From NCBI GenBank assembly GCA_024103355.1, contig JAGFIU010000043.1, positions 2,102 to 66,101 on the forward strand: DNA of 64,000 bases, in the 5' to 3' direction. The notes under the pieces are model-generated. The model worked only from the letters and a program-made list of their open reading frames with translations, was not told the origin of the DNA and did no database searches. The translations under genes were made by a program, and so were the position numbers. The stretch comes from Bacteroidota bacterium (GTDB lineage Bacteria > Bacteroidota > Bacteroidia > NS11-12g > UBA955). Every line of letters begins with the position of its first letter. Within the stretch, counting starts at the first letter, position 1. Shown here piece by piece: positions 7,806-24,033 of this stretch.

Positions 7806-7829
7806 TTTTCAAATCATTTTAAGTGTGAA

Positions 7830-9185: not shown

Positions 9186-9212
9186 TGTATATCGAATGAA
9201 AAATTTTAAAAA

Positions 9213-12200
9213 TTAAATGTTTCTGATTTTAGTTAGGTATTTTACACCTTGTTGAAGGTTTAATTCTTCAAGCAAGTGATAAGAACGTTCGTTTTTATAT
9301 AGTTTAGATACTTCACTAGATGTATCGTTTAAATCCCCAAATACTATAGCGTTTGCCGGACATGATCTTTGGCAAGCAGTTTCAATTTCTCCATCTATCA
9401 TTTCTCTTCTTTCGCGTTTTGCTTTAAGCTTACCATCCTGGATTCTCTGTACACACATTGAACATTTTTCCATAACCCCTCTGGTTCTAACTGTAACATC
9501 AGGATTAATGACCATCTTACCTAAATCATTATTGAAGAAGAAATCAAACTTATCATTATCATTATATCTGAACCAGTTAAATCGTCTCACTTTGAAAGGA
9601 CAGTTATTGGCACAATACTTTGTCCCAATACAACGGTTGTATGTCATTTGGTTCAAACCTTCTGAACTATGAGTAGTTGCCAACACAGGACAAACCGTTT
9701 CGCATGGGGCATTATCGCAATGTTGGCACATAATCGGCTGGTGCATCACCTGTACATTCTCATAATAGAGATATTCTCCATCTTTTTTCTTTGCTTCAGC
9801 TCTGTCCAATGCTTCGATACCTTTTTCTTTGGTAACAAAATCCTTCTGATAATCTCTTTTTAGGAGTAAGTCATTAGAATAGTCAACATGTTCCACATTT
9901 TTGAATGCAAAATATCTGTCAATTCTGATCCAATGCATCTCTCGTCTTCTTCTCACTTCATCGCGTCCTACAACAGGAACGTTGTTTTCAATGCTACAGG
10001 CGACAACACAAGCACCACAACCGGTACAAGCATTTAGGTCAATAGCCATTGCCCAATAGTGACCGGGATTATCATCTCTTTTATATTCATGTCTTGACCA
10101 AAGTTCATATAGATGAGGTCTTGGCATATCATTTCCGGCATATGGGTTCTTATTAAATTCTGTTTGAGTAGCTTCTCTTAATAAATCACGACCTTCGATT
10201 GTATTATGAGTTTGAGTTTGAGCCAATACATAATTACCGGCAACTTTTTCAATTTGAACACCTGAAGCAACCCATTGTCTTGTACCGTTAACAAACGGAG
10301 CAAACGGATATGCATTCTTTCCGATAGTTTCATATGCACCTTTTTCCGCAGATTTACCTTTTCGTCCATAACCCAATGCTATTGAAATAGTATTGTTTGC
10401 TTGACCCGGTTGAATAAGTACAGGAAATTGATCTATCGTGATTCCATTGAGACTCACTTTTACTAAATCTCCTTCAGTGATTCCTTTTTTCTCAGCTAAT
10501 GCTTTTGGCAAAGCAACATAGTTATCCCATGTTACTTTAGAAACAGGATCAGGCAATTCTTGTACCCATGGATTACCACAGAATTTTCCATCTCTTATTC
10601 CCACTTTTTGATATAAAATCAAGTCTATAGCACTATTAACTTCTGGTACCATTTTGGAAATTATAGGACCATAAGTACTGAATTCAGCAGTAAAGCTAAT
10701 AGGAGTATTTTCTATCATAGGCAGGTTATATACCCCGTCATGAAGCACTTTATTAAAGGCAGCTTCATTAGTAACACCTGCAACATTCGTTATCCAAAAA
10801 TTCTTTAGATAGGTATAGTATATTGAAGTATCAAATTTTTGTGCCATTATTTCCTTACCTGCAAACGGGTCTTTAGCAGGTTTTTCTCCAAGTCCTATCC
10901 ATGTGAGTAAAGACACCTCTGCTTGTCGTGTATTAAACACAGGCGAAATGGTCGGTTGAAGAATTTGCAATTTACCTTTCTTAGGTTCTGCATCTCCCCA
11001 AGATTCCAAGTAGTGGTTATCCGGGCAAATATAATCAACATTTTCAGCTGTTTCATCAATGAATCCTGAGAGAGAAATTTTAGTTTTGATTTTGGCTAAA
11101 GCATTCTTTACACTATCTGCTTTATGGTAGTTGTAAATAGGGTTTGCATCCCAAAAAATTACAGCATCATAGGCCCCATTTGTAGCATCAGAAATAAATT
11201 TATCGAAATCGGCATCCAAACCTTTGTACTGATTTGAATAGTTATTTAGGTCAATAGTGTTACCATAGTTACCTAACAAAACATTGAGACCGTTAACCAT
11301 TTGTTGTACATAGGGGTCATTTGAACCGGATATAATGATTGATTTACCTTCATTGTCAAGCAAATCTTTTGCAACATTATCAAGCACATTTCCTGCAAGA
11401 TTAAGAACTCTTGTAACCGGAATTTTAGCTGTTCCTTTTTTCTCTGCAATTCTATTATAAAGAGTAGCGATATAGAGCGCTTCACTTGATTGTTTCATAG
11501 GGAATCTGATATCAGCATTGGTTCCCGTAAGAGAAAGGTTGGATTCAAACTGATAATGTCTTGACATATTTCCGGGAACTCTTCCTCTAGTGTATGAGCC
11601 GGTATATTCAACCGGAGAAATCCACGTACCTAAAAAGTCTGCTGCAAAACTTACAATGATTTTTGATTTTGAAAAATCATATGATGGAATAACGGCTTTC
11701 CCAAATCCATCTAAATTTGCTTTTAATATCCCACTATAAGAAATCGCATCATAAGTAATATGGTCAGTGCTATATTTTTCAGCAAATTTTTGAATTACGG
11801 AAAGCGCTGAAGGACTATGTATTGTACCGGAAACAATAGCAACTTTTTTGCTCGCAGCAAGTGCTTTCTCTATTTCACCATCTATAGTAGCCCAGTCAGT
11901 TGCTTTCCCACCTTTCATTGGGTTTTCTAATCTAGCAGTATCATAAAGTGAGAGAATACTTGCTTGACCTAAAGCAGATAGACCTCGTCCTGAAAAGGAA
12001 TTTGGGTTACCGTCAACTTTAATGGGCCTTCCTTCACGAACCTTAATTTGAACACCATATCCCTCTGAACTTGCACCTAAAGTAGAGTTATAATAGTTTG
12101 CAACTCCGGGAGTGACATCCTCGGGTTTAACCAAGTACGGGATTGCTTTTCTGATTGGAGCTTTGTTACATGCTGCCAATGCTACAGCGGTGATACTAAA

Positions 12201-12371
12201 ACCAAAGAATTTTAAGAAGTCTCTCCTATTTGAAGATAATTCAAAGTTATTCTCTTGTAGAACTTCATCTAAAGGTAGGTCTTCGCTAAACTCTTTTTTC
12301 AAATCTGCTTGAAATGAAGGTGTGTTAAGTAACTCATCCTCTCCTTTCCAATATTGTGTTTTATTAGACAT
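9213..12371 (-). CDS. actB: ACIII subunit ActB: Tat-exported molybdopterin-oxidoreductase-like domain fused to a 4Fe-4S ferredoxin domain
   Basis: 1052 aa. The twin-arginine motif SNRRDFLKF is followed by a hydrophobic stretch. The C-terminal half holds multiple Cys clusters (CTGCGACVVACSIENNVP, CQHCDNAPCETVCP, CIGTKYCANNCP). Confidence 0.75.
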   Translation of the reverse strand: MSNKTQYWKGEDELLNTPSFQADLKKEFSEDLPLDEVLQENNFELSSNRRDFLKFFGFSITAVALAACNKAPIRKAIPYLVKPEDVTPGVANYYNSTLGASSEGYGVQIKVREGRPIKVDGNPNSFSGRGLSALGQASILSLYDTARLENPMKGGKATDWATIDGEIEKALAASKKVAIVSGTIHSPSALSVIQKFAEKYSTDHITYDAISYSGILKANLDGFGKAVIPSYDFSKSKIIVSFAADFLGTWISPVEYTGSYTRGRVPGNMSRHYQFESNLSLTGTNADIRFPMKQSSEALYIATLYNRIAEKKGTAKIPVTRVLNLAGNVLDNVAKDLLDNEGKSIIISGSNDPYVQQMVNGLNVLLGNYGNTIDLNNYSNQYKGLDADFDKFISDATNGAYDAVIFWDANPIYNYHKADSVKNALAKIKTKISLSGFIDETAENVDYICPDNHYLESWGDAEPKKGKLQILQPTISPVFNTRQAEVSLLTWIGLGEKPAKDPFAGKEIMAQKFDTSIYYTYLKNFWITNVAGVTNEAAFNKVLHDGVYNLPMIENTPISFTAEFSTYGPIISKMVPEVNSAIDLILYQKVGIRDGKFCGNPWVQELPDPVSKVTWDNYVALPKALAEKKGITEGDLVKVSLNGITIDQFPVLIQPGQANNTISIALGYGRKGKSAEKGAYETIGKNAYPFAPFVNGTRQWVASGVQIEKVAGNYVLAQTQTHNTIEGRDLLREATQTEFNKNPYAGNDMPRPHLYELWSRHEYKRDDNPGHYWAMAIDLNACTGCGACVVACSIENNVPVVGRDEVRRRREMHWIRIDRYFAFKNVEHVDYSNDLLLKRDYQKDFVTKEKGIEALDRAEAKKKDGEYLYYENVQVMHQPIMCQHCDNAPCETVCPVLATTHSSEGLNQMTYNRCIGTKYCANNCPFKVRRFNWFRYNDNDKFDFFFNNDLGKMVINPDVTVRTRGVMEKCSMCVQRIQDGKLKAKRERREMIDGEIETACQRSCPANAIVFGDLNDTSSEVSKLYKNERSYHLLEELNLQQGVKYLTKIRNI

Positions 12372-12405
12372 TTAGTTTCTATGAAATGATTAGTTGATAA
12401 TTATA

Positions 12406-14127
12406 TTAATAATGGCACTTTGAGCAATCCAAACCACCAATGTTTGCAATTGTGATATTAACTTTTCCGTCCTTAAGATACTTACTTTTATCTCCATTCT
12501 TCTCAATATCCTTTTTGGCGAGCGCATGAAGTTTTTCGTAATAATCATTGTTCTCAACATCTACTCCTGAGTTTCTGTGACAATCTATGCACCAACCCAT
12601 TTGAAGTGTGGCGTATTGCTGAATAACTTCCATCTCTTGAACAGGCCCGTGACACTTTTGACATTCCAATCCGGCAACATTGGCATGCTGAGAGTGATTG
12701 AAATATGATAAATCCGGTAAATTATGTACCCTTACCCATTTGATATTCTTTGGATTATCTCCAAAGCGCTCTCCCGGTTTTGCATCAGGGTTGTAATCTA
12801 AGGCTGTATAAATCTTCTGAATTTCCGGAGAAACTTCACCGTTATATTTGTCTCTTAGTTGTACTCCAACGTGGCAATTCATACAAGTATTTAATGAAGG
12901 AATGCTCGCAGCTTTACTATAATCTACAGTACTATGGCAATAACGACAATCAATATTTAATTCACCGGCATGAAGCGCATGGGAATATGCAATCGGTTGT
13001 GTTGGGGCATATCCTCTCTGAACACCAACTTCTGTAACTCCAAAATAAAAACCATAAATACCTAAAACCAAACCCACTGATACAATAATTAATAGAGTAT
13101 TTATTGTTCTTCGAGAAGTACTATATTTGTTCTTAAGATGTTCTGTAAGTGATTTTTCTTTTTGTTCTGAGCCTTCAAATTCTTTTATTACATTGGATAA
13201 TTTCCTTCTGATTCTATAAAGTATTATAGCTACAATGAGTAAAACTACTGCAATTATAGCCACCACATAGAGTGTTGTTTTATTGTAAAAACTACCTTCA
13301 TTAGCGGACTTACCGTCATCTGTTTTTGTCTTACCTGAATCTTCTGCAACTTTAGGAGCACTCTCATAGTCAATCCAAGCTAGGATTGCATCTATATCCT
13401 CAGTAGTCAAATTCTCATATACATTCATCGCTGCACTATTATACTCTTTGTATAGTGCAATGGCATCAGGATCTCCTGATTCTCTTAATTGAACATTATT
13501 TTTTATCCAACTATGCAACCAATCTTTGCTTCTTCGTTTGGTTACATCCTTTAAGGCAGGCCCGATTACAACTCTATCAATTGCATGACATGCCATACAA
13601 GCTTGTTGTTCAAATAACTCTTTCCCCTTTTGGACTAAAGCATCAGGTGCGCCACCAGAAGCAGGCGCTGCTTTGGGCGAACTTTCTTCTTCTATCCACA
13701 ACAAAATCGACTTGATGTCATTATCAGATAGGTGCTCATATGTATTCATTGCAGCACCGTTATATTCTTTGTAAATTGCTATAGCATCCTTATCACCTGA
13801 TTCTCGTAACTGAACATTATTTCTAATCCATTTAATTAGCCACTCTTCACTTTTTTGCTTTGTTATATCTTTTAAAGCAGGACCAATTACAACCCTGTCA
13901 ATAGCATGACAGGCAAAACATGCTTGTTGTTCAAATAATTCTTTCCCTTTTGCTGCTGATGGGGCATCTTGAGCCTTAGCTACATAGGAACCATAAGTTA
14001 GTAATAGAGCAGTAAGGCTAATTGCCCTTACTGAATTTCTGATTATGTCTGATAGTCTTATCATTAGTACTATTAATATTATATACACTAATTTCCAAAG
14101 CACTTTTGCTTCAAAAATTCGGGGCAA
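12406..14127 (-). CDS. actA: ActA-like multihaem cytochrome c: two N-terminal mono-haem class-I-like domains plus a C-terminal pentahaem ActA domain (7 CXXCH motifs)
   Basis: 573 aa with a signal peptide. The motifs are CFACH and CMACH in two near-identical 88-aa repeats, two TM helices, then CRYCH, CMNCH, CIDCH, CQKCH and CSKCH. Confidence 0.7.
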   Translation of the reverse strand: MPRIFEAKVLWKLVYIILIVLMIRLSDIIRNSVRAISLTALLLTYGSYVAKAQDAPSAAKGKELFEQQACFACHAIDRVVIGPALKDITKQKSEEWLIKWIRNNVQLRESGDKDAIAIYKEYNGAAMNTYEHLSDNDIKSILLWIEEESSPKAAPASGGAPDALVQKGKELFEQQACMACHAIDRVVIGPALKDVTKRRSKDWLHSWIKNNVQLRESGDPDAIALYKEYNSAAMNVYENLTTEDIDAILAWIDYESAPKVAEDSGKTKTDDGKSANEGSFYNKTTLYVVAIIAVVLLIVAIILYRIRRKLSNVIKEFEGSEQKEKSLTEHLKNKYSTSRRTINTLLIIVSVGLVLGIYGFYFGVTEVGVQRGYAPTQPIAYSHALHAGELNIDCRYCHSTVDYSKAASIPSLNTCMNCHVGVQLRDKYNGEVSPEIQKIYTALDYNPDAKPGERFGDNPKNIKWVRVHNLPDLSYFNHSQHANVAGLECQKCHGPVQEMEVIQQYATLQMGWCIDCHRNSGVDVENNDYYEKLHALAKKDIEKNGDKSKYLKDGKVNITIANIGGLDCSKCHY

Positions 14128-14336: not shown

Positions 14337-15359
14337 TTACTTTGGCTCTCTAGTATTCAAGAGAATTAGCCTATATTCTAAGAAGGTGCCTGCTCCATTA
14401 ATCTTAACAGAGGTTTCCATTCTAAATTCTGAAATATTCCTTCTTAGCTTGTCGAATGTGTGATATTCATCTCTTGAAACAATTATACGAGGTGGAGGAA
14501 TGTTGACCTCTCCTCCTGAAGTCCCTGTTAAATAATTCAAATAATCCTCTGCAAGGCTTTGAAAGTCTGATTCATCAGTTACTGAATTAAAGGAATGTTT
14601 AATTTCATCTCGATTCTCGGAAGTAATATAAAAGATTTCGTCACCTGACTTGCTTATACTCTCTCTATCTTTGAAAGGATTAGGTATCTCACATATAATA
14701 GGGTCCTTTATCCATAGATTAACTCTACGTCCAATTATCGAGAACATATTTAAATAGTAATTTGCAACCACAAGTTCAACTTCTTCAGGTTGTTCATACA
14801 GTTTTCTATATTCATCGTAAGTATTTAAACCTATTTTTTTATTCTCAAATTCTATTCTCAAATTTTGCAATAACGTATCTCGCCATTGTTCCCAATTCTT
14901 TAGACCAATGTAGTTAAATGAATCATCAAACTCCAACAGAACCGGAGCATTTCTTAAGGATTCTCGGGTTTCTAAATAAGCCGTTTTGCTCGGCTTATCA
15001 TATTTCATATAATGTGTTATACCTACTATCCATGTGTTTGAATCGGTATAGGATATGTTCATCACTGAATAAAGCGAATCAATCGTCATATAAATAGGCA
15101 TATCCCTCTCATTCGTATTCAAATTGGTTGTTTTATGAAAATACACAAGCTCCATCCCGTTTTTCCAATTTGGTTTAAAAGTAAAATGCATCGTGGTGTC
15201 AAGCTGAGCAAATGTCTTTGAAGCAGAAAGCACTATGCACATCACTATTAAGGAAGCAATAAAACCGCTTTTGAATGAGACATTGTTGTTCATGAATATT
15301 TCAAAATAAATTGCTGCAAAGATGCAAAAAACTATGCCAAAGTTGCTCCTACTAAACAA
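14337..15359 (-). CDS. Hypothetical secreted protein (the real start is probably the internal Met at about 15293)
   Basis: 340-aa ORF. Only the segment from the MNNNVSF Met onward has a signal-peptide-like hydrophobic region. No recognisable family. Confidence 0.4.
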   Translation of the reverse strand: MFSRSNFGIVFCIFAAIYFEIFMNNNVSFKSGFIASLIVMCIVLSASKTFAQLDTTMHFTFKPNWKNGMELVYFHKTTNLNTNERDMPIYMTIDSLYSVMNISYTDSNTWIVGITHYMKYDKPSKTAYLETRESLRNAPVLLEFDDSFNYIGLKNWEQWRDTLLQNLRIEFENKKIGLNTYDEYRKLYEQPEEVELVVANYYLNMFSIIGRRVNLWIKDPIICEIPNPFKDRESISKSGDEIFYITSENRDEIKHSFNSVTDESDFQSLAEDYLNYLTGTSGGEVNIPPPRIIVSRDEYHTFDKLRRNISEFRMETSVKINGAGTFLEYRLILLNTREPK

Positions 15360-15392: not shown

Positions 15393-17369
15393 ATGATATT
15401 TAACAGAAAACAACTCGATGACTCAACGTTAATAGAGTTATATAAAAACCTCATATATCCCCGTATCATAGAAGAAAAAATGCTGATTTTGCTCAGACAA
15501 GGGAAAATAGGTAAATGGTTTTCCGGTATTGGGCAAGAAGCAATTGCAGTCGGGGCAACACTTGCGTTAAAGGATAATGATTATATACTTCCACTGCATA
15601 GAAATCTGGGAGTTTTTACCACTCGAAAAATTCCATTTTCCAAGCTCTTTGCACAATGGCAGGGGAAGAAGTCGGGTTTTACCAAAGGTCGCGACCGTTC
15701 TTTTCATTTTGGTACTAATGAATATCATATAGTCGGGATGATTTCGCACCTCGGTGCAATGGCGGGAGTGAGTAATGGAATCGCATTGGCTGAGAAAATT
15801 GATAAAACAGGCAATATCGCACTTGTTTTTTCCGGTGACGGTGGTACCAGCGAAGGTGATTATCATGAAGCTTTAAATGTGGCTGCTGTGTGGGATCTGC
15901 CGGTTATTTTTCTTATTGAAAACAACGGCTATGGGCTTTCTACTCCCGGCAATGAGCAATTTCGGTGCAAACAATTTATTGACAAAGGGATAGGCTATGG
16001 CATGGAAGCCATACAAATTGACGGGAACAACCTATTGGAGGTGTTTCACACTATCAAAGAAACCGCAGACTCAATCCGACAAAACCCTCGTCCCGTGCTG
16101 ATTGAATGTATTACCTTCAGAATGAGAGGACATGAAGAAGCCTCAGGTACAAAATATGTTCCGCGAGAATTGTTCGAAATATGGGCTAAAAAAGACCCCA
16201 TTTCCAACTATGAAAGCTATCTGATTCAACTAGGTTTATTGAATGAGGCACTTAAAAATCAAATCCACGATTCTTTCAAATCAGAAATTGACAGTGCTGT
16301 TAAAGTAGTAGAAAACGAACCGGATATTATTGCAGATACAAAAGAAGAACTTGCAGATATGTATGCAATATCTGATATCGTTCCTACCCTACCCGACACA
16401 AGCAAACAAAGTGAAAAACGTCTGGTTGATGCAATTTCAGACGGCTTGAAGCAAAGTCTTGAAAAATTTCCTCACTCATTGGTTATGGGTCAAGACATAG
16501 CTGAATATGGCGGTGTTTTTAAGGTTACAGAAAACTTCTATGAGATATTTGGCAAAGAACGAATCAGAAATACTCCCATCACTGAAAGTTCTATTTTGGG
16601 TGCCGGTTACGGCTTATCCATCAAAGGATGGAAAGCGGTTGTAGAAATGCAGTTTGGTGATTTTGTAAGTTGCGGTTTCAATCAAATTGTAAACAACCTT
16701 GCCAAATCTCATTATCGCTGGGCACAGAATGCAGATGTAGTGGTTAGACTTCCCACCGGAGCCGGTGTTGGCGCAGGTCCTTTCCACTCTCAAAGCACAG
16801 AAGCCTGGTTTACCCATGTTCCGGGACTAAAAGTAGTGTATCCCTCAAATCCGTTTGATGCTAAAGGATTGCTCTGCGCAAGCATCGAAGACCCTAATCC
16901 TATTCTGTTTTTTGAACACAAAGCATTGTATAGAAGCATTCACGGAATGGTTCCGGATAATTACTACACCTTACCAATCGGTAAAGGCCGAAAAATCAGC
17001 GAGGGAGATGAACTCAGTATTATTACTTACGGCTGGGCAGTTCATTGGGCAAAAGAAGCTTGTGAAAAAATGCAAATCAGTGCCGATATCATAGACCTGA
17101 GAACATTAATCCCATGGGATAAAGAAATGGTTTCGCAATCAGTACAAAAGACGGGCAAAGTGTTAGTCTTGCACGAAGACACGCTCACAGGCGGTTTCGG
17201 AGCTGAAATTGCAGCATGGATCAGCGAAAACTGTTTTGAACACTTGGACGCACCTGTACGCAGGCTGGGAAGCCTTGATACTCCTGTGCCTTTGGCTAAA
17301 GATTTGGAAAGAAATTTTCTTGGCAAAGCAAGACTGGAAACCGTCCTAAATGAGTTGAGAGCATATTAG
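15393..17369 (+). CDS. 2-oxoacid dehydrogenase E1 component with fused alpha and beta subunits (TPP-dependent; BCKDH/acetoin-type)
   Basis: 658 aa. The N-terminal half has the E1-alpha TPP-binding region (GDGGTSEGDYHEALNVAAVWDLPVIFLIENNGYG). The C-terminal half is E1-beta transketolase-like (EMQFGDFV.., pyrimidine-binding). Fused E1 genes are common in Bacteroidota. Confidence 0.8.
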   Translation: MIFNRKQLDDSTLIELYKNLIYPRIIEEKMLILLRQGKIGKWFSGIGQEAIAVGATLALKDNDYILPLHRNLGVFTTRKIPFSKLFAQWQGKKSGFTKGRDRSFHFGTNEYHIVGMISHLGAMAGVSNGIALAEKIDKTGNIALVFSGDGGTSEGDYHEALNVAAVWDLPVIFLIENNGYGLSTPGNEQFRCKQFIDKGIGYGMEAIQIDGNNLLEVFHTIKETADSIRQNPRPVLIECITFRMRGHEEASGTKYVPRELFEIWAKKDPISNYESYLIQLGLLNEALKNQIHDSFKSEIDSAVKVVENEPDIIADTKEELADMYAISDIVPTLPDTSKQSEKRLVDAISDGLKQSLEKFPHSLVMGQDIAEYGGVFKVTENFYEIFGKERIRNTPITESSILGAGYGLSIKGWKAVVEMQFGDFVSCGFNQIVNNLAKSHYRWAQNADVVVRLPTGAGVGAGPFHSQSTEAWFTHVPGLKVVYPSNPFDAKGLLCASIEDPNPILFFEHKALYRSIHGMVPDNYYTLPIGKGRKISEGDELSIITYGWAVHWAKEACEKMQISADIIDLRTLIPWDKEMVSQSVQKTGKVLVLHEDTLTGGFGAEIAAWISENCFEHLDAPVRRLGSLDTPVPLAKDLERNFLGKARLETVLNELRAY

Positions 17370-17457
17370 TTTTGACTGTAAGCAAAATTAGATTCTTTCA
17401 AAAACATATCATTCACAATACTATGCGATGCAAGATAGTGGACTGTTTCTGATTTTC

Positions 17458-18510
17458 CTACCTGAATCCTTCGTTGATATCTTGCAAAATATCATTTCCG
17501 GGGCACAAGGTTGCTTCGTTCAAGCGGTTGAGCGGGGTGTCGGAAGTATTTAAAATATTATGCAACTCTTTGGGATTGCGGTTGATATAAAGCAAGCCGG
17601 TTAGCACCTCTTGTTTTTCTTCTGCTCTTTTGAGTGCTGAGATAGCGGATAGTCGGTCTTCCGGATTCCATTCATTATCCAATTTATGAAATTGCAGTGC
17701 ACTGCCGTCATGCAGTTCAATAGTGGTAACTTCTCCTTCTCCATAGGACTTGGTAATGGGATCCATTACAGGCACATAATCTGCTCTACCAGTGCAGGCT
17801 GCATGTTCTCTCGCAAACTGATATGATTTTGTAGAGCCGGGATTATTATTGAATGTAACACAAGGTGAAACCACATTCAAAAAAGCAAATCCGGGATGGT
17901 TGATAGCAGCCTTGAGTAGAGGAATCAATTGGTCTTTGTCTCCCGAAAAGCTCTGAGCTACAAAAGAAGCTCCCAATTCTATTGCAAGGCTGGCCAAATC
18001 AATAGGCGGATAGGGGTTAACGCTTCCGGCTTTACTGATAGAACCTACATCGGCAGTGGCGGAATCTTGTCCTTTTGTAAGACCATAAACCCCATTATTC
18101 ATGCAGATATAAACCATGTTCAGGTTTTTGCGTATCACATGAACAAATTGTCCCATACCGATTGATGCAGAATCTCCATCGCCCGAAACACCGATATACA
18201 ATAACTCTTTGTTGGCAAGGTTTGCTCCGGTAGCCACAGCCGGCATGCGTCCGTGAACTGAGTTGAATCCGTGTGAATTGCTCAAAAAATAAGCAGGCGT
18301 TTTGGATGAACACCCAATTCCGGATAGTTTGGCAACTTTGTGTGGCTCTATATCCAATTCAAAACAAGCCTGAACAATGGCTGTGCTGATGGAATCGTGG
18401 CCGCAACCGGCACAAAGGGTTGAAATAACTCCTTCGTATTCGGCTGAGGTGTAGCCCAATTTATTTTTGGGTAATTCAGGATGTCGGAAACTTGGTTTAT
18501 AAAATGTCAT
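17458..18510 (-). CDS. 2-oxoacid:ferredoxin oxidoreductase beta subunit, second paralog
   Basis: 350 aa with CAGCGHD and GDGDSASIGMGQ TPP-binding motifs. It is collinear with the alpha-subunit paralog 12 bp upstream. Confidence 0.8.
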   Translation of the reverse strand: MTFYKPSFRHPELPKNKLGYTSAEYEGVISTLCAGCGHDSISTAIVQACFELDIEPHKVAKLSGIGCSSKTPAYFLSNSHGFNSVHGRMPAVATGANLANKELLYIGVSGDGDSASIGMGQFVHVIRKNLNMVYICMNNGVYGLTKGQDSATADVGSISKAGSVNPYPPIDLASLAIELGASFVAQSFSGDKDQLIPLLKAAINHPGFAFLNVVSPCVTFNNNPGSTKSYQFAREHAACTGRADYVPVMDPITKSYGEGEVTTIELHDGSALQFHKLDNEWNPEDRLSAISALKRAEEKQEVLTGLLYINRNPKELHNILNTSDTPLNRLNEATLCPGNDILQDINEGFR

Positions 18511-18522
18511 TGTTATTAATTG

Positions 18523-20343
18523 TTATTTAATTTGTGAAATAATATCATCAGCGGTAATTGGCATACCGTTATAATTTAAAACAGGAATCAATTTATTTGG
18601 ATTTATACCCATCTCAATCATCATCAGGCTGCGCAGTTGTGCATCGCGGTTTTGTTCTACTACATAAATTTTATCATGGGAATTAACAAACTCTTCTACT
18701 GACTTACTAAACGGAAAAGATTTGATTCGCATAGCATCCATTACCATTCCCTGTTTTTGGAGAATATGCATAGCCTCTTCTGCGGCATAAATTGAAGTGC
18801 CATAAAAGACAATCGCTGTTGCGCTTTTCTTTTCATCCTGATAGAAATGTGGCGCGGGCACCATCTCCTTTGCTGTATTAAATTTAACTAACAGCCTATC
18901 CATATTCTTCTTATAGGAATCTGAATCCTCGGTATATTTTGCATATTCGTTTTTGGATGTTCCTCTGGTAAAATATGAGCCTTTTGTAGGATGAGTTCCC
19001 GGATACGTTCTATAGGGTATCCCGTCTCCATCCACATCAAGGTAACGTCCAAAATTTTCAATTTTTTCCAAATCTTGAGCAGAGAGGACTTTGCCACGTT
19101 TAAATGTTCTGTTATCGTCCCATTTCAAAGGTTCTGACATGTGGTCATTCATACCCAAATCAAGGTCAGAGAGCAGAAGGATTGGTGTTTGTAATTGTTC
19201 TGCAAGGTCAAATGATTCTGCGGTAAAATCAAAGCACTCTTTCGGAGTAGATGGGAATAAAACAATATGCTTGGTATCTCCATGAGAAGCATAAGCTGCT
19301 TCCATCACATCACTTTGTTGTGTACGTGTTGGCATTCCTGTGGAAGGCCCTGTGCGTTGTATGTCAATCAACACTACCGGTATTTCGGCAAAATAAGCTA
19401 AACCCAAAAATTCGTTCATCAAAGAAACGCCCGGACCGCTGGTTGCAGTGAACGAACGTGCACCATTCCATCCTGCTCCGATAGCCATCCCGATTGCGGA
19501 TAATTCATCTTCTGCCTGAACAAAAGCATAATTCTTTTTTCCGGTTATGGGGTCAATGCGAAATTTGGAAGCGTATTCATTAAATGCTTCGGGTGTAGAA
19601 GTAGAAGGGGTTATTGGATACCATGCACAAACCGTTGCTCCTCCATAGACAGCTCCTATTCCGCAAGCGGTATTGCCATCAATCATAATAGAATCTTTAA
19701 CCAAATCTCTTCTTTCAACCCGCATATTCAATGGAAATTCAAAATGTTCTTTAACATAATCCACACCCATTTGTAATGCTTTTATATTGGGAGATATCAG
19801 TTTTTCTTTCCCTTTAAACTGAGATTGAAGGACATTTTCCAAAGCAGTAAACTCAATGTTCAGCAAAGCAGAAAGCGCTCCCACATAAATCACATTTTTA
19901 AAAAGCTGTCTTTGGCGTGGGTCTGTAAAAGCAGCGTTGGACATATCCATTAGCGGTATTCCAAAATAGGTAATATCTTCACGGATGAACTCATCATGCA
20001 AATGCTTAGAACTGTCATAGAGAAAATATCCTCCCGGCTTAACACAAGCAACGTCTTGATGCATACTTTGAGGGTTCATACAAACCATAAAGTCTACTCC
20101 TTCTCGCCTGCCCAACCAACCGTTTTCATTAACTCTGACTTCATACCAAGTGGGAAGTCCTTGAATATTGGAAGGAAAAATATTTTTGGGTGTTACCGGA
20201 ACCCCCATTCTAAAAATTGCTTTTGTAAAAAGAAAATTTGCACTTGCAGACCCTGTTCCATTCACATTTGCAAAGCGGATAACAAAATCGTTAACTTTTG
20301 TTGTGCCGGTCTTATCTGCTGCTAAAGCTTGAGATTCGAGCAT
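18523..20343 (-). CDS. 2-oxoacid:ferredoxin oxidoreductase alpha subunit, second paralog
   Basis: 606 aa with the same domain order as the 3175..5040 product (GPGVSLMNEFLGLAYFAEIPVVLI). Confidence 0.8.
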   Translation of the reverse strand: MLESQALAADKTGTTKVNDFVIRFANVNGTGSASANFLFTKAIFRMGVPVTPKNIFPSNIQGLPTWYEVRVNENGWLGRREGVDFMVCMNPQSMHQDVACVKPGGYFLYDSSKHLHDEFIREDITYFGIPLMDMSNAAFTDPRQRQLFKNVIYVGALSALLNIEFTALENVLQSQFKGKEKLISPNIKALQMGVDYVKEHFEFPLNMRVERRDLVKDSIMIDGNTACGIGAVYGGATVCAWYPITPSTSTPEAFNEYASKFRIDPITGKKNYAFVQAEDELSAIGMAIGAGWNGARSFTATSGPGVSLMNEFLGLAYFAEIPVVLIDIQRTGPSTGMPTRTQQSDVMEAAYASHGDTKHIVLFPSTPKECFDFTAESFDLAEQLQTPILLLSDLDLGMNDHMSEPLKWDDNRTFKRGKVLSAQDLEKIENFGRYLDVDGDGIPYRTYPGTHPTKGSYFTRGTSKNEYAKYTEDSDSYKKNMDRLLVKFNTAKEMVPAPHFYQDEKKSATAIVFYGTSIYAAEEAMHILQKQGMVMDAMRIKSFPFSKSVEEFVNSHDKIYVVEQNRDAQLRSLMMIEMGINPNKLIPVLNYNGMPITADDIISQIK

Positions 20344-20393
20344 ATATATTGTCTAAAATAATTGTTTCTAATAAGTTTAAGATAGTCTTTGAT

Positions 20394-22211
20394 TTAATAA
20401 ATTACTGTAGGCGGCAGTCCGTCTTCGCCCATATTATGTGCTTTTGTCACATTATAATAAAACTGCTTCATGTCCCAAGCTGAAGTAGGGCAACGCTCCG
20501 CACATAATCCACAATGCAGACAGACGTTTTCATCTTTGACCATGATTCTACCTGTTTTTACTTTGTCTGACACATAAAGACTTTGGTCAGTATTTAATGC
20601 GGGCATTGTCAACTTAGCGCGCATTTCTCCTTCGTCCTCTTCATTGAAGGTAAATGTAATACAATCCGTAGGGCAGACATCTACACAAGCATCACACTCA
20701 ATACATAAGTTTTCTTCAAAAACTGTTTGCATATCACAGTTGAGACAACGTTCTGCTTCTTTGAATGCTTCTAATTCATCAAAACCCAACTCCACTTCTT
20801 TTTTAATATTATTTAGCGTCTCAGACTTGTCTGCTTGTGGTACGATATATCTTTTGTCATTCACAACCTGACTATCATAACTCCATTCATGAATACCCAT
20901 CTTCATACTGTGCAGATTCACAAATGGAGACGGTCTGTCTTGTTTAATATTTAGACCTTCACACAACAGATGTATGGAAATAGCAACTTGATGTCCTTGG
21001 GCAACAGAGGTAATAATATTTTTAGGACCTAAAGAAGCATCACCGCCAAAAAAGACTTTTGGATGTGTTGAGGCAAAAGTTTTGGCATCCAAAATCGGCA
21101 TTCCCCATTCATTAAATTCTATTCCCAAATCACGTTCAATCCAGGGAAAGCTATTTTCCTGACCTATCGCCACTATGGCATCATCTGCTTCAAAAAAAAC
21201 ATCGGGCTCTCCGGTTGGTATTAATTTTCTTTTTCCTGTATCATCATAAACAGCCTTTACTTTTTCAAACATCATTCCCTGCAATTTTCCATCTTTTACT
21301 ACAAAGGATTTGGGAACATGATTATCAAAAATAGGGATATCTTCATGTAGTGCATCTTCAATTTCCCACTCTGAAGCTTTCATTTCAGATTTCGGACTTC
21401 TAACCACAACCTTTACATCCGTTCCGCCCAATCTTCTTGCAGTTCGGCAGCAATCCATTGCGGTATTTCCTCCACCCAAAACCAAAACTCTTTTTCCTAT
21501 TGATTTTGTATGTTCAAAAGCCACACTTGCGAGCCAATTGATACCCACATGAATATTTTCTTTGGCATCCCATCTCCCTGGCAAGTCGGGCAAATCGCGT
21601 CCTCTGGGAGCACCCGTACCTACATAAATAGCGTCATAATCTTTTTCAAGCATCTCTTTCATTGAAGACACATAATGATTAAAATGGGTATGGATACCTA
21701 AATCAAGAATATATCCAACCTCCTCGTCCAACACTTCATCCGGCAGTCTGAAAGAAGGAATTTGGCTGCGCATAAATCCTCCGCCTTTTGATTGGTCATC
21801 AAAGAGATGAATTTCATAACCAATTGGTGCGAGGTCTCGAGCAACGGTCAAAGAAGACGGACCTCCTCCAATCAACGCAATTTTTTTCCCGTTAGGTGGA
21901 AACGGGCCCTGAGGCATCATTCTTTTTACATCCTCCTTGTGGTCAGCTGCCACTCTTTTGAGTCTGCAAATTGCAACAGGCTTTTCTTCAACACGTCCAC
22001 GTCTGCATGCAGGTTCACATGGCCTATCACAAGTTCTGCCCAAAATCCCGGGAAACACATTGGAATCCCAGTTTACCATATAGGATTCACTGTAACGCCC
22101 TTGGGCAATCAGTCTTAAATACTGAGGAATCGGAGTGTGCGATGGACAAGCATATTGGCAATCCACCACTTTATGAAAGTATTCTGGATTCTTGGTATCA
22201 GTAGGTTTCAT
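20394..22211 (-). CDS. GltD-family NAD(P)H-dependent FAD/Fe-S oxidoreductase with a C-terminal 2x[4Fe-4S] ferredoxin domain
   Basis: 605 aa. The N-terminus has GltD-type Cys clusters (CPSHTP..CDRPCEPAC) and a Rossmann motif (IALIGGGPSSLTVARDLA). The C-terminus has CIECDACVDVCP and CLHCGLCAERCP. It lies 50 bp upstream of the second korA paralog on the same strand. Confidence 0.65.
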   Translation of the reverse strand: MKPTDTKNPEYFHKVVDCQYACPSHTPIPQYLRLIAQGRYSESYMVNWDSNVFPGILGRTCDRPCEPACRRGRVEEKPVAICRLKRVAADHKEDVKRMMPQGPFPPNGKKIALIGGGPSSLTVARDLAPIGYEIHLFDDQSKGGGFMRSQIPSFRLPDEVLDEEVGYILDLGIHTHFNHYVSSMKEMLEKDYDAIYVGTGAPRGRDLPDLPGRWDAKENIHVGINWLASVAFEHTKSIGKRVLVLGGGNTAMDCCRTARRLGGTDVKVVVRSPKSEMKASEWEIEDALHEDIPIFDNHVPKSFVVKDGKLQGMMFEKVKAVYDDTGKRKLIPTGEPDVFFEADDAIVAIGQENSFPWIERDLGIEFNEWGMPILDAKTFASTHPKVFFGGDASLGPKNIITSVAQGHQVAISIHLLCEGLNIKQDRPSPFVNLHSMKMGIHEWSYDSQVVNDKRYIVPQADKSETLNNIKKEVELGFDELEAFKEAERCLNCDMQTVFEENLCIECDACVDVCPTDCITFTFNEEDEGEMRAKLTMPALNTDQSLYVSDKVKTGRIMVKDENVCLHCGLCAERCPTSAWDMKQFYYNVTKAHNMGEDGLPPTVIY

Positions 22212-22551
22212 TGATTCAAATAAGTTTTGATTGGGTATTTCTTCTCAAGCATTCTAATAATTTACTTGGCAAATATATCAATATAATAATCTGACAAAAT
22301 CAAATTACAAACCCTGCCCTGAATTTAGAATCAAAACAAATAGAATATAAGGATTTCCGCAAACAAATCATAATACATTGATTAACAAACAATAAAATCA
22401 ATTACAAAAAAAGAATTAAACCCCTCATATTCAATAGTATTTAAGCAAAATAAGAAATCAACTAAATGGACACACCCTCGTTAATGCAAAACAGGTTGAT
22501 AAAATCCGTCATTGGAGTGGCATCGTACTCTCAAAGTAACCATTTAAGTAA

Positions 22552-22559
22552 TATATTTG
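22552..22559 (+). promoter_or_regulatory. Candidate Bacteroidota sigma-A -7 element (TAnnTTTG) for the GAPDH-like/gld operon
   Basis: The sequence tatatttg lies about 35 nt upstream of the 22594 start. No clear -33 TTG partner was found. Confidence 0.3.
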
Positions 22560-22593
22560 CGGCCATCTAAAATACTTAAAAAATCAAAACAAT

Positions 22594-24033
22594 ATGGCGT
22601 ACGAACAAGACTTGCAAGAGTGGATAAAAGCAGAAAAAGCGGCAATCGAACTCATACATGTAACCGGCAATTTATGGTTTGAGAAATCTGTAGAATTGGT
22701 AATATTCCGTAATCAGGTAGTTGACCGGAGTGCCAGTCAAATTCTAAGTTTAATTCAATATGCAAAAGAGATTGTAAAGAAACCAATAAATATCTTTGAC
22801 GCTCTGCTTGTTGCAAAAGAAATGCTTTCCTTCGAGTTATCCCCTTCACGTATTGACCTCGGAAGACTTACTTATGAATGGTTTCTCGAAAGAGAAAAGT
22901 ATGGTAATATAAAAGAATTTGTATCTGACAAATTAGCAACCTTCATTGGGAAGGACAAGAAAAATTTAGTCCCAAAAGATGTGGTTCTGTATGGGTTTGG
23001 TCGAATCGGTCGTATTCTTGCCCGTGAATTTATTATTCAAGCAGGTAAGGGAGAACAACTTAGACTTCGCGCTATAGTTACACGAGATAAAACAGATGAG
23101 GATTTAATCAAACGTGCAGCATTATTGCGCACAGACAGCGTACATGGCCCTTTCCCAGGAACAATTATTGAAGATATTCAAAATCGTACTCTGATTATCA
23201 ATGGCCATACCGTTCACATGATTTCTGCCAAAACTCCGGAAGAAATTGATTATACAAAATACGGAATCAATAATGCACTACTAATAGACAATACCGGTGT
23301 GGCAAGGGACAGAGAGGGTTTGAGCAAGCACTTATTATCAAAGGGTATCGACAAAGTATTGTTGACAGCACCCGGGAAAGGCGACATTCCCAATATTGTT
23401 TATGGAATCAACCATGCAAACCATGTCAAAGATGAGCGAATATTCTCTGCTGCATCATGCACAACCAACGCAATCGTGCCTATTCTTGCTGTTGTAAACA
23501 ACACATTAGGTATTGAACGCGGACACATTGAAACTGTCCATGCCTATACAAATGACCAAAACTTGTTAGATAATTACCATAAAAAATACAGAAGAGGTCG
23601 CTCAGCAGTGCTCAACCTTGTTATTACAGAGACAGGTGCTGCAAAAGCAGTTTCTAAGGCAATACCTGAACTCGAAGGCAAATTAACCGGTAATGCAGTA
23701 AGAGTGCCTACCCCAGATGTGTCTTTGGCAATACTTAACCTTACATTAAACAAGACAACAGACAAAGAAAGCATCAACGGGATTTTGAAAGATGCAGCAT
23801 TAAAAGGTGATTTAGTAGAACAGATTCTTTATTCATACAGCAATGAGTTGGTTAGTTCAGACCTTGTTGGCTGCCCACAAACAAGTATTGTTGACAGTCC
23901 TGCCACACTGATTAGCAAAGATGGCAAGAATGTAGTGCTCTATATATGGTATGACAACGAATACGGATATAGCCGACAAGTGGTTAGATTAGCAAAATAT
24001 CTATCCAATGTTATTCGTCTGACATACTATTAA
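22594..24033 (+). CDS. GAPDH-family NAD(P)-dependent dehydrogenase, long form with an extra N-terminal domain of about 120 aa
   Basis: 479 aa. It has a Rossmann motif (LYGFGRIGRILAREF) and the catalytic SCTTN signature (SAASCTTNAIVPIL). The GAPDH-like core is preceded by an unrecognised extension of about 120 aa. Confidence 0.7.
   Translation: MAYEQDLQEWIKAEKAAIELIHVTGNLWFEKSVELVIFRNQVVDRSASQILSLIQYAKEIVKKPINIFDALLVAKEMLSFELSPSRIDLGRLTYEWFLEREKYGNIKEFVSDKLATFIGKDKKNLVPKDVVLYGFGRIGRILAREFIIQAGKGEQLRLRAIVTRDKTDEDLIKRAALLRTDSVHGPFPGTIIEDIQNRTLIINGHTVHMISAKTPEEIDYTKYGINNALLIDNTGVARDREGLSKHLLSKGIDKVLLTAPGKGDIPNIVYGINHANHVKDERIFSAASCTTNAIVPILAVVNNTLGIERGHIETVHAYTNDQNLLDNYHKKYRRGRSAVLNLVITETGAAKAVSKAIPELEGKLTGNAVRVPTPDVSLAILNLTLNKTTDKESINGILKDAALKGDLVEQILYSYSNELVSSDLVGCPQTSIVDSPATLISKDGKNVVLYIWYDNEYGYSRQVVRLAKYLSNVIRLTYY

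What the first reader, a model, noticed from the sequence alone, without database searches (positions are those of the whole stretch)
17458..22211. Second KorAB paralog pair directly downstream of a GltD-like flavoprotein carrying its own ferredoxin domain
The window holds two full alpha/beta OFOR pairs about 13 kb apart. In the second, a 605-aa GltD-type NAD(P)H:acceptor oxidoreductase with a C-terminal 2x[4Fe-4S] domain sits 50 bp upstream on the same strand. This arrangement would let NAD(P)H, ferredoxin and 2-oxoacid chemistry be wired in a single transcription unit. Examples include an NADPH-driven reductive carboxylation or a ferredoxin-regenerating module. It exists alongside an aerobic ACIII chain and a conventional TPP E1 dehydrogenase (15393..17369) encoded divergently next door.
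Basis: inference. Interest (0 to 1): 0.5.

Follow-up and report, generated by a model that had tools for sequence, protein, structure and literature searches.

The report
Three-subunit NADP-linked 2-oxoglutarate oxidoreductase operon
The three genes are a conserved operon for an iron-sulfur 2-oxoglutarate-oxidising enzyme that carries its own NADP-reducing flavoprotein subunit; this enzyme type was purified from Azoarcus evansii in 2003, so this is a new Bacteroidota member of a known kind rather than a new system.

Summary
On the minus strand lie a 605-aa GltD/NfnB-type flavoprotein with a C-terminal 2x[4Fe-4S] domain (22211..20394), a 50-bp gap, a 606-aa OFOR alpha (20343..18523), a 12-bp gap and a 350-aa OFOR beta (18510..17458). 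A second OFOR pair lies at 5040..2163.

The arrangement is not new. All three proteins are 59-64% identical over full length to adjacent gene trios in Aromatoleum (Azoarcus) evansii and A. aromaticum EbN1. The EbN1 depositors named theirs '2-ketoglutarate: NADP oxidoreductase, gamma/alpha/beta subunit', after the enzyme purified from A. evansii in 2003.

The gene order is strongly conserved:
- 62 of 80 genomes found with the flavoprotein have alpha and beta downstream.
- 74 of 75 testable metagenome loci found with the alpha have the flavoprotein directly upstream.
- Many gene junctions overlap.

The most likely function is oxidation of 2-oxoglutarate to succinyl-CoA and CO2. Electrons would run from TPP through five [4Fe-4S] clusters to FAD and NADP+.

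NADPH-driven reductive carboxylation is thermodynamically unlikely. The two OFOR pairs share only 24-34% identity. The E1 gene is convergent, not divergent.

Verdict: new member of a known kind, of modest interest.

The parts
20394..22211 (-). korC (KGOR gamma): a 605-aa, 67.9-kDa NADP(H)-binding flavoprotein of the GltD/NfnB family, with four predicted [4Fe-4S] sites and a C-terminal dicluster ferredoxin domain.
   Evidence: Domain and family hits are. It is 64% identical over 591 aa to the A. evansii homolog P0192 and 60.6% to EbN1 CAI10532, named '2-ketoglutarate: NADP oxidoreductase, gamma subunit'. In 30 family members the following Cys are invariant: 18, 22, 61, 65, 69, 82, 489, 492, 503, 506, 509, 513, 564, 567, 570 and 574. 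The motifs GGGPSS (115-120) and GGGNTAMD (246-253) are also present.
20344..20393 (-). 50-bp korC-korA spacer.
   Evidence: It contains no terminator-like hairpin and no promoter-like site, and no TAnnTTTG motif. In homologous loci this junction runs from overlapping to 150 bp or less in 46 of 62 cases.
18523..20343 (-). korA2 (KGOR alpha): a 606-aa, 67.8-kDa OFOR alpha subunit with domains III, I and II and the YPITP motif.
   Evidence: Domain and family hits are. It is 60% identical to A. evansii alpha and 59.5% to EbN1 alpha. The best solved structure is Magnetococcus OGOR, 6n2n_A.
18511..18522 (-). 12-bp korA-korB spacer.
   Evidence: The A-to-B gap is 150 bp or less in 51 of 54 homologous loci, and many overlap by 4 bp.
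17458..18510 (-). korB2 (KGOR beta): a 350-aa, 37.7-kDa TPP-binding subunit with one [4Fe-4S] site.
   Evidence: Domain and family hits are. It is 59% identical to the A. evansii and EbN1 beta subunits. The motifs LCAGCGH, GIGCSS, SPCVTFNN and GDGDS...NNGVYGLTKGQ are conserved. The best solved structure is 6n2n_B.
22270..22277 (-). Candidate Bacteroidota-type -7 promoter element TATATTTG, about 58 nt upstream of the korC start codon. TTG motifs lie 17 and 23 nt further upstream.
   Evidence: This is the only such motif in the 5' region, found by the pattern scan. It is a consensus match only.
2163..5040 (-). korA1/korB1: a separate two-subunit OFOR (621 aa and 340 aa) with no flavoprotein partner. 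It is context, not part of the module.
   Evidence: Family hits are. It shares 24% (alpha) and 34% (beta) identity with pair 2 and scores higher against Magnetococcus OGOR (277 bits).

Best explanation
The three genes form one operon, korC-korA-korB. It encodes a three-subunit 2-oxoglutarate:NADP+ oxidoreductase of the Azoarcus evansii KGOR type, probably with (alpha-beta-gamma)2 composition.

Proposed mechanism:
- KorA and KorB form a two-subunit OFOR core that lacks the internal ferredoxin domain.
- At the thiamine diphosphate site, 2-oxoglutarate is decarboxylated and the succinyl group passes to CoA.
- The two electrons leave one at a time through the single [4Fe-4S] cluster of KorB.
- They enter the C-terminal dicluster ferredoxin domain of KorC, which stands in for the missing OFOR domain V.
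- They then cross the two GltD-type [4Fe-4S] clusters of KorC, reach its FAD, and leave as hydride on NADP+.

The net reaction is 2-oxoglutarate + CoA + NADP+ -> succinyl-CoA + CO2 + NADPH. It is strongly downhill, so the enzyme should run oxidatively.

Shown here: gene order, domain content, conserved cofactor ligands, orthology to the Aromatoleum trios, and two-way conserved synteny.

Inferred: a stable complex, the order of the clusters in the wire, 2-oxoglutarate and NADP+ specificity, and the direction of the reaction.
For: Anatomy and operon structure:
- There is no terminator or promoter motif in the 50-bp or 12-bp gaps, and a Bacteroidota-type TAnnTTTG motif lies upstream of korC only.

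Orthology:
- KorC, KorA and KorB are 64/60/59% identical over full length to the adjacent 592/618/351-aa genes on the A. evansii chromosome.
- They are 60.6/59.5/59.3% identical to EbN1 plasmid genes CAI10532-4, which the depositors named '2-ketoglutarate: NADP oxidoreductase, gamma/alpha/beta subunit'.
- Azoarcus sp. CIB and chromosomal EbN1 copies carry the same name.
- PMC10134865 lists the A. evansii KGOR flavoprotein subunit as a clade of the GltD/NfnB family, citing Ebenau-Jehle et al. 2003.
- Predicted masses are 67.9/67.8/37.7 kDa here and 65.5/68.0/37.4 kDa in A. evansii. From my memory of the 2003 abstract, the reported subunits were 63, 62 and 37 kDa, with FAD, TPP and Fe-S.

Synteny:
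- 62 of 80 genomes have alpha and beta downstream of KorC, 46 of them with a gap of 150 bp or less and many overlapping. These span Bacteroidota, Acidobacteriota and Lysobacterales.
- 74 of 75 testable metagenome loci found with KorA2 have KorC directly upstream.
- Variovorax megaplasmids carry the trio too.

Cofactor sites:
- 16 invariant Cys in KorC give four [4Fe-4S] sites, alongside FAD and NADPH glycine motifs.
- The VVVRS motif after the NADPH beta-strand is shared with A. evansii.
- KorB has four cluster Cys and the TPP motif, and KorA has YPITP.
- Two-subunit OFORs lack domain V and dock an external dicluster ferredoxin in a large pocket (PMC5020499).
Against: - There is no biochemical data for any Bacteroidota member.
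- The 2003 paper is not held in the library, so its subunit sizes, cofactor content and NADP+/2-oxoglutarate specificity rest on my memory, on the depositor annotations and on one citing paper.
- I could not verify that the A. evansii trio in L083 is the copy that was purified. Aromatoleum genomes carry more than one copy.
- 12 of 80 loci, mostly Pyrinomonadaceae, have KorC with no alpha or beta within 6 kb. Linkage is therefore not absolute.
- At 60% identity, substrate specificity is likely but not guaranteed to be retained.
- The AF2 model of KorC was poor in all Fe-S regions, with mean pLDDT 59.9.
- The host appears aerobic (ACIII), whereas the Azoarcus enzyme was described from anaerobic growth.
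Confidence: 0.75

Rival explanations
1. KorA2B2 is an ordinary ferredoxin-dependent 2-oxoglutarate:ferredoxin oxidoreductase. KorC is a separate, co-expressed NADPH:ferredoxin oxidoreductase, not a stable subunit. It would equilibrate the ferredoxin and NADP(H) pools and could regenerate reduced ferredoxin from NADPH.
For: - GltD/NfnB-type proteins can act as ferredoxin-linked enzymes, for example AadN in R. palustris, which substitutes for KorAB (PMC9973337).
- KorC occurs without adjacent alpha and beta in 12 of 80 genomes.
- KorC is more conserved than alpha or beta, at 72-78% against 59-75%.
- From memory, the A. evansii enzyme also passed electrons to ferredoxin.
Against: - 74 of 75 KorA2-type alphas have KorC directly upstream.
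- Overlapping stop and start codons are frequent, which suggests stoichiometric co-translation.
- From memory, the Azoarcus enzyme was purified as a 1:1:1 three-subunit complex, and the depositors named the proteins as subunits.
- KorC carries its own ferredoxin domain, which removes the need for a diffusible carrier.
Confidence: 0.12
2. The module runs in reverse as an NADPH-driven 2-oxoglutarate synthase, carrying out reductive carboxylation of succinyl-CoA. It might use the NfnB-like FAD for electron bifurcation to reach the low potential required.
For: - Both alphas are closest among solved structures to the reverse-TCA OGOR of Magnetococcus.
- The closest solved relatives of KorC are subunits of bifurcating enzymes (Nfn, Stn-type).
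Against: - The succinyl-CoA+CO2/2-oxoglutarate couple is about -520 mV and NADP+/NADPH is -320 mV (established values). Reduction by NADPH alone would cost roughly +39 kJ/mol.
- No second, high-potential electron exit is encoded next to the trio. There is no NfnA/PyrK-like partner.
- No ATP-citrate lyase or other reverse-TCA marker lies in the window's annotated ORFs.
- The host has an aerobic ACIII chain.
- From memory, the Azoarcus enzyme works oxidatively.
Confidence: 0.05
3. The enzyme is an NAD(P)+-linked OFOR for a different 2-oxoacid, such as pyruvate, branched-chain or aromatic 2-oxoacids.
For: - The NCBIfam hit is only to the generic subfamily 'OAFO_sf'.
- Two-subunit OFORs can be broad in specificity (PMC5020499).
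- A. evansii also has an NAD+-linked phenylglyoxylate OFOR. NCBIfam PadG and PadI give weak hits only.
Against: - The proteins are 59-64% identical over full length to the Aromatoleum KGOR trios.
- Scores against PadG and PadI are far below their cutoffs (46 and 24 bits against 700).
- The best structural relative is a 2-oxoglutarate-specific OGOR.
- The beta active-site segment GCSSKTP is shared with A. evansii KorB.
Confidence: 0.08

Closest known systems
2-Oxoglutarate:NADP+ oxidoreductase (KGOR) of Azoarcus/Aromatoleum evansii (Ebenau-Jehle, Boll and Fuchs, J Bacteriol 2003; title verified), and the trios annotated after it in A. aromaticum EbN1 and Azoarcus sp. CIB
   Same: - The three genes are in the same order, gamma-alpha-beta.
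- The subunit sizes match.
- The domain content is the same.
- Identity is 59-64% in every subunit.
- All cofactor ligands are conserved.
   Different: - The host is an aerobic-looking Bacteroidota MAG with ACIII, not a denitrifying aromatic degrader.
- The trio is not next to benzoyl-CoA pathway genes.
- There is a 50-bp spacer instead of overlapping genes.
- The activity is untested.
Two-subunit KorAB-type 2-oxoglutarate:ferredoxin oxidoreductases (Magnetococcus marinus OGOR 6N2N, Thauera aromatica KorAB, M. tuberculosis KorAB, Hydrogenobacter KorAB, Sulfolobus StOFOR)
   Same: - The alpha (III-I-II) and beta (VI) architecture is the same.
- There is a single [4Fe-4S] cluster.
- The TPP and YPITP motifs are present.
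- There is no internal ferredoxin domain.
   Different: Those enzymes use a free ferredoxin. Here a dedicated flavoprotein with a fused ferredoxin domain is encoded upstream, and this holds for nearly every member of this alpha clade. Pair 1 of the window (korA1B1) is the more typical representative of this kind.
NfnB / GltD / dihydropyrimidine dehydrogenase-type NADPH flavoproteins (PDB 5JCA_L, 4YLF_B, 2VDC_G, 1GT8) and the larger Stn/Nfn-type fusions (8OH5_C, 9N5U_A, 9BOV_A)
   Same: They share the Fer4_20 module with two [4Fe-4S] clusters and the FAD/NADPH domains. Bit scores are 128-264. Like DPD, KorC adds a C-terminal dicluster domain to extend the wire.
   Different: - There is no NfnA/PyrK partner, no GltB partner and no FMN/DHODH domain.
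- The first CxxC of the N-terminal cluster is circularly permuted to residues 489-492.
- It has VRS instead of YRR after the NADPH strand.
- It has an invariant Cys254-Cys255 pair.
Other OFORs wired to pyridine nucleotides: phenylglyoxylate:NAD+ oxidoreductase PadEFGHI of A. evansii, and pyruvate:NADP+ oxidoreductase (PNO) of Euglena and Cryptosporidium (from general knowledge; the NCBIfam PadG and PadI names were seen)
   Same: The logic is the same: a TPP/Fe-S 2-oxoacid oxidoreductase is coupled directly to NAD(P)+ through an attached flavoprotein.
   Different: The subunit sets and flavoprotein modules differ. PNO uses a fused P450-reductase-like FMN/FAD domain, and Pad has five subunits. 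Sequence similarity is only weak.

Membership tests
Three-subunit 2-oxoglutarate:NADP+ oxidoreductase (Azoarcus evansii-type KGOR) | Three adjacent co-directional genes: a GltD-like flavoprotein with a ferredoxin domain (gamma), then OFOR alpha, then OFOR beta. | tested here: met
   The order is the same in A. evansii, EbN1, Variovorax, 62 of 80 genomes and 74 of 75 metagenome loci.
Three-subunit 2-oxoglutarate:NADP+ oxidoreductase (Azoarcus evansii-type KGOR) | Full-length sequence similarity of each subunit to the Aromatoleum proteins named as KGOR subunits. | tested here: met
   Identity is 64/60/59% to A. evansii and 60.6/59.5/59.3% to EbN1 CAI10532-4. Against the window's other OFOR pair it is 24-36%.
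Three-subunit 2-oxoglutarate:NADP+ oxidoreductase (Azoarcus evansii-type KGOR) | Cofactor sites for TPP, FAD, NADP(H) and multiple [4Fe-4S] clusters. | tested here: met
   This was tested at motif level only. KorC has 16 invariant Cys and the FAD and NADPH glycine motifs. KorB has four Cys and the GDG...NN TPP motif. The AF2 model was too poor to check geometry.
Three-subunit 2-oxoglutarate:NADP+ oxidoreductase (Azoarcus evansii-type KGOR) | A stable alpha-beta-gamma complex that catalyses 2-oxoglutarate- and CoA-dependent NADP+ reduction. | not testable with these tools
   This needs protein purification and an enzyme assay.
Three-subunit 2-oxoglutarate:NADP+ oxidoreductase (Azoarcus evansii-type KGOR) | Identity of the purified A. 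evansii subunits (published N-terminal sequences) with the L083 trio. | not testable with these tools
   The paper (PMC225024) is not held. Only its title and one citing statement were seen.
Two-subunit (alpha-beta)2 OFOR without domain V | Alpha has domains III, I and II with YPITP. Beta has a TPP domain and one [4Fe-4S] cluster. Neither alpha nor beta has a ferredoxin domain. | tested here: met
   The family description comes from PMC5020499.
Nfn (NADH-dependent ferredoxin:NADP+ oxidoreductase) | An NfnB-like subunit paired with an NfnA/PyrK-like [2Fe-2S]-FAD subunit. | tested here: not met
   The NfnB-like module is present. No PyrK/NfnA-like gene lies among the neighbours. The flanking genes are OFOR alpha and beta, E1, GAPDH and an ABC transporter.
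Glutamate synthase small subunit (GltD) | Scores above the GltD family cutoffs and is encoded with a GltB large subunit. | tested here: not met
   TIGR01317 scores 142 bits against a cutoff of 448, and TIGR01318 scores 195 against 483. No GltB is adjacent.
NCBIfam NF009410 (PRK12771) 'NAD(P)-binding protein' | Score above the curated cutoff. | tested here: not met
   The score is 381 bits against a cutoff of 516, although the match is full length (3-582 of the protein). No curated NCBIfam model names this family.

The most novel reading that the evidence does not exclude
In strictly aerobic Bacteroidota, Acidobacteriota, Lysobacterales and Variovorax, the korCAB module may be an oxygen-tolerant, NADPH-producing 2-oxoglutarate oxidoreductase. 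It would work as a regular oxidative TCA-cycle step, beside or instead of the lipoamide 2-oxoglutarate dehydrogenase complex. That is a physiological role quite different from the anaerobic aromatic-ring-reduction context in which the enzyme was discovered. A more remote variant is that the NfnB-like FAD of KorC gives the complex bifurcating or confurcating behaviour.
Probability: 0.35. Interest if true: 0.45.

Novelty: new member of a known kind. Interest (0 to 1): 0.3.

Why it matters
This enzyme type has been characterised in only one organism, and current pipelines label it 'FAD-dependent oxidoreductase' plus '2-oxoacid:acceptor oxidoreductase'. Metabolic reconstructions of the many Bacteroidota, Acidobacteriota and Proteobacteria that carry it therefore miss a direct 2-oxoglutarate-to-NADPH link.

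Recognising the trio as one enzyme has three uses:
- It corrects TCA-cycle and NADPH-budget models for these abundant soil and freshwater aerobes.
- It points to cultured hosts, such as Lacihabitans and Variovorax, in which oxygen tolerance of an OFOR could be studied.
- It offers a self-contained, ferredoxin-independent OFOR module for engineering.

It does not reveal a new kind of system.

Tried and rejected
- The AlphaFold2 model of KorC, built from a 30-sequence alignment, had mean pLDDT 59.9, with all Fe-S regions below 50. It was not used and no fold search was run.
- I tried to read the primary 2003 KGOR paper, the MmOGOR structure paper and the OFOR phylogeny review. None is held.
- Ten literature searches found no description of this module in Bacteroidota.
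- Substrate-specificity prediction from active-site residues was dropped. The only residue map available is for Sulfolobus StOFOR, and it gives contradictory guidance: position K49b is Lys in KorB2 and A. evansii, but Arg in the 2-oxoglutarate-specific Magnetococcus enzyme.
- An Rfam scan of 17000..23000 found nothing.
- The 88-nt convergent spacer after korB2 folds no better than shuffled sequence.
- Conserved neighbourhood beyond the trio was rejected. None of the window's E1, GAPDH or 340-aa ORF recurs next to the trio in 80 genomes.
- The sigma-70-like site inside korC (20478..20451) was considered as an internal promoter. It was discounted because promoter-like hits in the region are not clearly enriched (24 against 16 +/- 4 in shuffles) and because Bacteroidota use a different consensus.
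Full report
**1. Observation**

The ORF map matches the finding exactly. On the minus strand lie a 605-aa ORF (22211..20394), a 50-bp gap, a 606-aa ORF (20343..18523), a 12-bp gap and a 350-aa ORF (18510..17458).

Pfam gives these domains:
- The first protein has a GltD/DPD-type Fer4_20 domain (17-93), a pyridine-nucleotide-disulfide-oxidoreductase FAD/NAD(P) domain (110-406) and a 2x[4Fe-4S] dicluster domain (497-578).
- The second has the OFOR gamma-like (POR) and TPP-proximal (POR_N) domains.
- The third has a TPP-binding domain.

NCBIfam places the alpha above the cutoff of TIGR03710, '2-oxoacid:acceptor oxidoreductase subunit alpha'.

A first OFOR pair (621 aa and 340 aa) lies at 5040..2163. 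It sits directly downstream of an alternative complex III operon (5156..14127) and upstream of hscA.

Two details of the finding need correcting:
- The E1 gene (15393..17369, + strand) is convergent with the beta gene, not divergent.
- The two OFOR pairs are very distant. The alphas share 24% identity. The betas share 34%, over only the N-terminal 208 residues.

**2. What it is**

A tblastn of the flavoprotein against plasmid records found the same three-gene arrangement on plasmid 2 of Aromatoleum aromaticum EbN1. The three window proteins are 60.6, 59.5 and 59.3% identical to the EbN1 proteins over full length. An exact-sequence look-up shows that the EbN1 depositors named them '2-ketoglutarate: NADP oxidoreductase, gamma / alpha / beta subunit' (CAI10532-4).

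A search with the EbN1 gamma subunit found more homologs:
- The same name is used in Azoarcus sp. CIB and on the EbN1 chromosome.
- There is a 592-aa homolog in Aromatoleum evansii.

On the A. evansii chromosome that gene is followed, with overlapping or abutting junctions, by a 618-aa alpha and a 351-aa beta. The window proteins are 64, 60 and 59% identical to these.

A. evansii is the organism from which a 2-oxoglutarate:NADP+ oxidoreductase was purified (Ebenau-Jehle, Boll and Fuchs, J Bacteriol 185:6119, 2003). I verified the title in two reference lists. PMC10134865 lists the flavoprotein subunit of that KGOR as a clade of the GltD/NfnB family.

The primary paper is not held. The following details come from my memory of its abstract: three subunits of 63, 62 and 37 kDa in 1:1:1 ratio; FAD, TPP and Fe-S cofactors; specificity for 2-oxoglutarate and NADP+. 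The predicted masses fit well, at 67.9/67.8/37.7 kDa here and 65.5/68.0/37.4 kDa in A. evansii.

**3. Conservation of the arrangement**

I searched one genome per species with the flavoprotein and obtained 80 loci. They came from Bacteroidota (Chitinophagales, Flavobacteriales, Cytophagales, Saprospirales), Acidobacteriota (Pyrinomonadaceae) and Lysobacterales. The results were:
- In 62 loci an alpha of the same type follows on the same strand.
- In 46 of those the junction is 150 bp or less, and about half of those overlap.
- The alpha-beta junction is 150 bp or less in 51 of 54 loci.
- Six loci have too little downstream sequence to judge.
- Twelve loci, mostly Pyrinomonadaceae, have no alpha or beta within 6 kb.

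Where the gamma-alpha distance is 1-5 kb, the inserted genes are unrelated cargo, such as a Gp49/HTH toxin-antitoxin pair, an amidase and a nucleotidyltransferase.

The reverse test is sharper. Of 80 metagenome loci retrieved with the alpha subunit, 75 have enough upstream sequence to judge, and 74 of these carry the flavoprotein directly upstream.

None of the window's other neighbours (E1, GAPDH, the 340-aa ORF) recurs next to the trio. The three genes are therefore a self-contained module. Cultured carriers include Lacihabitans species and Variovorax paradoxus.

**4. Transcription unit**

The 50-bp and 12-bp gaps contain no terminator-like hairpin and no promoter-like site. The Bacteroidota -7 motif TAnnTTTG occurs only three times on this strand between 17300 and 22700. 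One copy (TATATTTG, 22277..22270) lies 58 nt upstream of the korC start, with TTG 17 and 23 nt further upstream. None lies in the intergenic gaps.

A sigma-70-like match lies inside the 3' end of korC (20478..20451). It is the best consensus match in the region. However, such matches are not clearly enriched over shuffles, and this phylum uses a different promoter consensus. No Rfam family matches 17000..23000.

Co-transcription is therefore likely but not shown.

**5. Cofactor anatomy and mechanism**

In an alignment of 30 gamma subunits from three phyla, 16 Cys that fit cluster-ligand motifs are invariant. Two further invariant Cys, at 254 and 255, are described at the end of this section.
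- Cys 503, 506, 509, 513 and 564, 567, 570, 574 form two classical CxxCxxCxxxCP motifs. This is the ferredoxin domain.
- Cys 18, 22, 61, 65, 69 and 82 correspond to the GltD/NfnB/DPD N-terminal cluster region.

The first CxxC of that N-terminal region is missing from the N-terminus. It appears instead at residues 489-492, in the motif EAERCLNC. In Pyrococcus NfnI-L, residues 12-48 (...EAERCLQC) align to KorC 458-495, and residue 51 onward aligns to KorC 17 onward. This is a circular permutation. The larger Stn/Nfn-type fusion proteins share it, aligning colinearly to KorC 18-502. The permutation puts the ferredoxin domain 10 residues after the relocated CxxC.

Other cofactor sites:
- FAD (GGGPSS) and NADPH (GGGNTAMD) motifs are invariant in KorC.
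- The strand after the NADPH motif ends in VVVRS in all members, including A. evansii, where Nfn and Stn have YRR.
- KorB2 keeps the four cluster cysteines and the GDG...NN TPP motif.
- KorA2 keeps YPITP.

Two-subunit OFORs lack the internal ferredoxin domain and are thought to dock a free dicluster ferredoxin in a large pocket (PMC5020499).

From these points I infer a linear wire: TPP, then the KorB [4Fe-4S], then the KorC ferredoxin-domain clusters, then the KorC GltD-type clusters, then FAD, then NADP+.

With the standard potentials (about -520 mV for succinyl-CoA+CO2/2-oxoglutarate and -320 mV for NADP+/NADPH; established knowledge), the oxidative direction releases about 39 kJ/mol. NADPH-driven carboxylation is therefore unlikely without an extra energy input. 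No partner for a second, high-potential electron exit is encoded nearby.

The AF2 model of KorC was confident only in the flavin and nucleotide core, with mean pLDDT 59.9. It cannot test the wire.

An invariant vicinal Cys254-Cys255 in the NADPH loop is specific to this family and unexplained. Solved relatives have Ala-Ala or Val-Ala at that position.

**6. The other OFOR pair**

korA1/korB1 scores higher than pair 2 against the Magnetococcus OGOR structure (277 against 226 bits). It has no flavoprotein partner and looks like a conventional ferredoxin-dependent KorAB.

The window therefore encodes two different routes from a 2-oxoacid to reducing power. One goes through free ferredoxin and one goes directly to NADP+. 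I did not pursue pair 1 further.

**7. Comparison with known systems, and novelty**

The module passes every membership feature of the Azoarcus-type KGOR that can be tested in silico: gene order, full-length similarity of all three subunits, and cofactor motifs. Activity and complex formation cannot be tested here.
- It is not an Nfn, because there is no NfnA partner.
- It is not a glutamate synthase small subunit, because it scores far below the cutoffs and has no GltB.
- It falls below the cutoff of the generic NCBIfam model PRK12771.

It is best described as a new member, in a new phylum, of a known but little-studied enzyme type that is generically annotated.

What is not described in the literature I could search is the wide distribution of this module. 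It occurs in aerobic Bacteroidota, Acidobacteriota, Lysobacterales and Variovorax. Gamma subunits are 72-78% identical between Bacteroidota and Acidobacteriota. This suggests a mainstream role in oxidative metabolism rather than the anaerobic aromatic-degradation context of its discovery. That is the most novel reading left open.

**8. Verdict**

Confidence that this is a three-subunit 2-oxoglutarate:NADP+ oxidoreductase operon is about 0.75. Interest is 0.3.

Noticed in passing
window 285..14127 (- strand): The alternative complex III operon (14127..5156) runs directly into korA1 (5040..3175), korB1 (3185..2163) and an HscA-type Fe-S assembly chaperone (2156..285), all on the same strand. A respiratory complex, a ferredoxin-type OFOR and an Fe-S chaperone may be co-expressed.
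   Followed up: partly
window 20394..22211 (-), KorC residues 254-255: An invariant vicinal Cys-Cys sits in the NADPH-binding loop (GGGNTAMDCCR) in all 30 family members aligned. Solved Nfn, Stn and GltD relatives have Ala-Ala or Val-Ala there. It could be a redox-sensitive switch; its role is unexplained.
   Followed up: partly
window 20394..22211 (-), KorC residues 458-495 and 17-22: The segment carrying the first CxxC of the GltD/NfnB N-terminal cluster region is circularly permuted to after the flavoprotein core. It lies immediately before the ferredoxin domain. The PDB chains 9BOV_A, 9N5U_A and 8OH5_C share this arrangement.
   Followed up: partly
L009 7878..11290; L039 8651..12404: In Weeksellaceae/Flavobacteriia and Pyrinomonadaceae genomes, the korC-korA spacer has acquired unrelated cargo while keeping the gene order. 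The cargo includes a Gp49/HTH toxin-antitoxin pair, an SDH-type protease-like gene, an amidase, a nucleotidyltransferase and a RibD_C protein.
   Followed up: partly
window 20451..20478 (- strand): The best sigma-70-type promoter match of the region (TTGGGA-16-TATAAT, 10 of 12) lies inside the 3' end of korC, about 108 nt upstream of the korA2 start. It is probably meaningless in Bacteroidota but could be an internal promoter.
   Followed up: no
window 14337..15359 (-) and 5156..6535 (-): A 340-aa ORF between ACIII and the E1 gene has no Pfam or NCBIfam match. Neither does the 459-aa last ORF of the ACIII cluster, which may be ActF.
   Followed up: no
window 22594..24033 (+): A 479-aa GAPDH with a 128-residue N-terminal extension is encoded divergently from korC. 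It matches the known long-form family PRK08289 above cutoff (689 bits), so the extension is real and ordinary.
   Followed up: yes
window 27592..46112: There are several very large ORFs: 1229 aa with a TraB/PrgY/GumN domain, 776 aa with DUF285 repeats and a T9SS sorting tail, and further ORFs of 2475 aa and 1433 aa. The last two were not examined.
   Followed up: no
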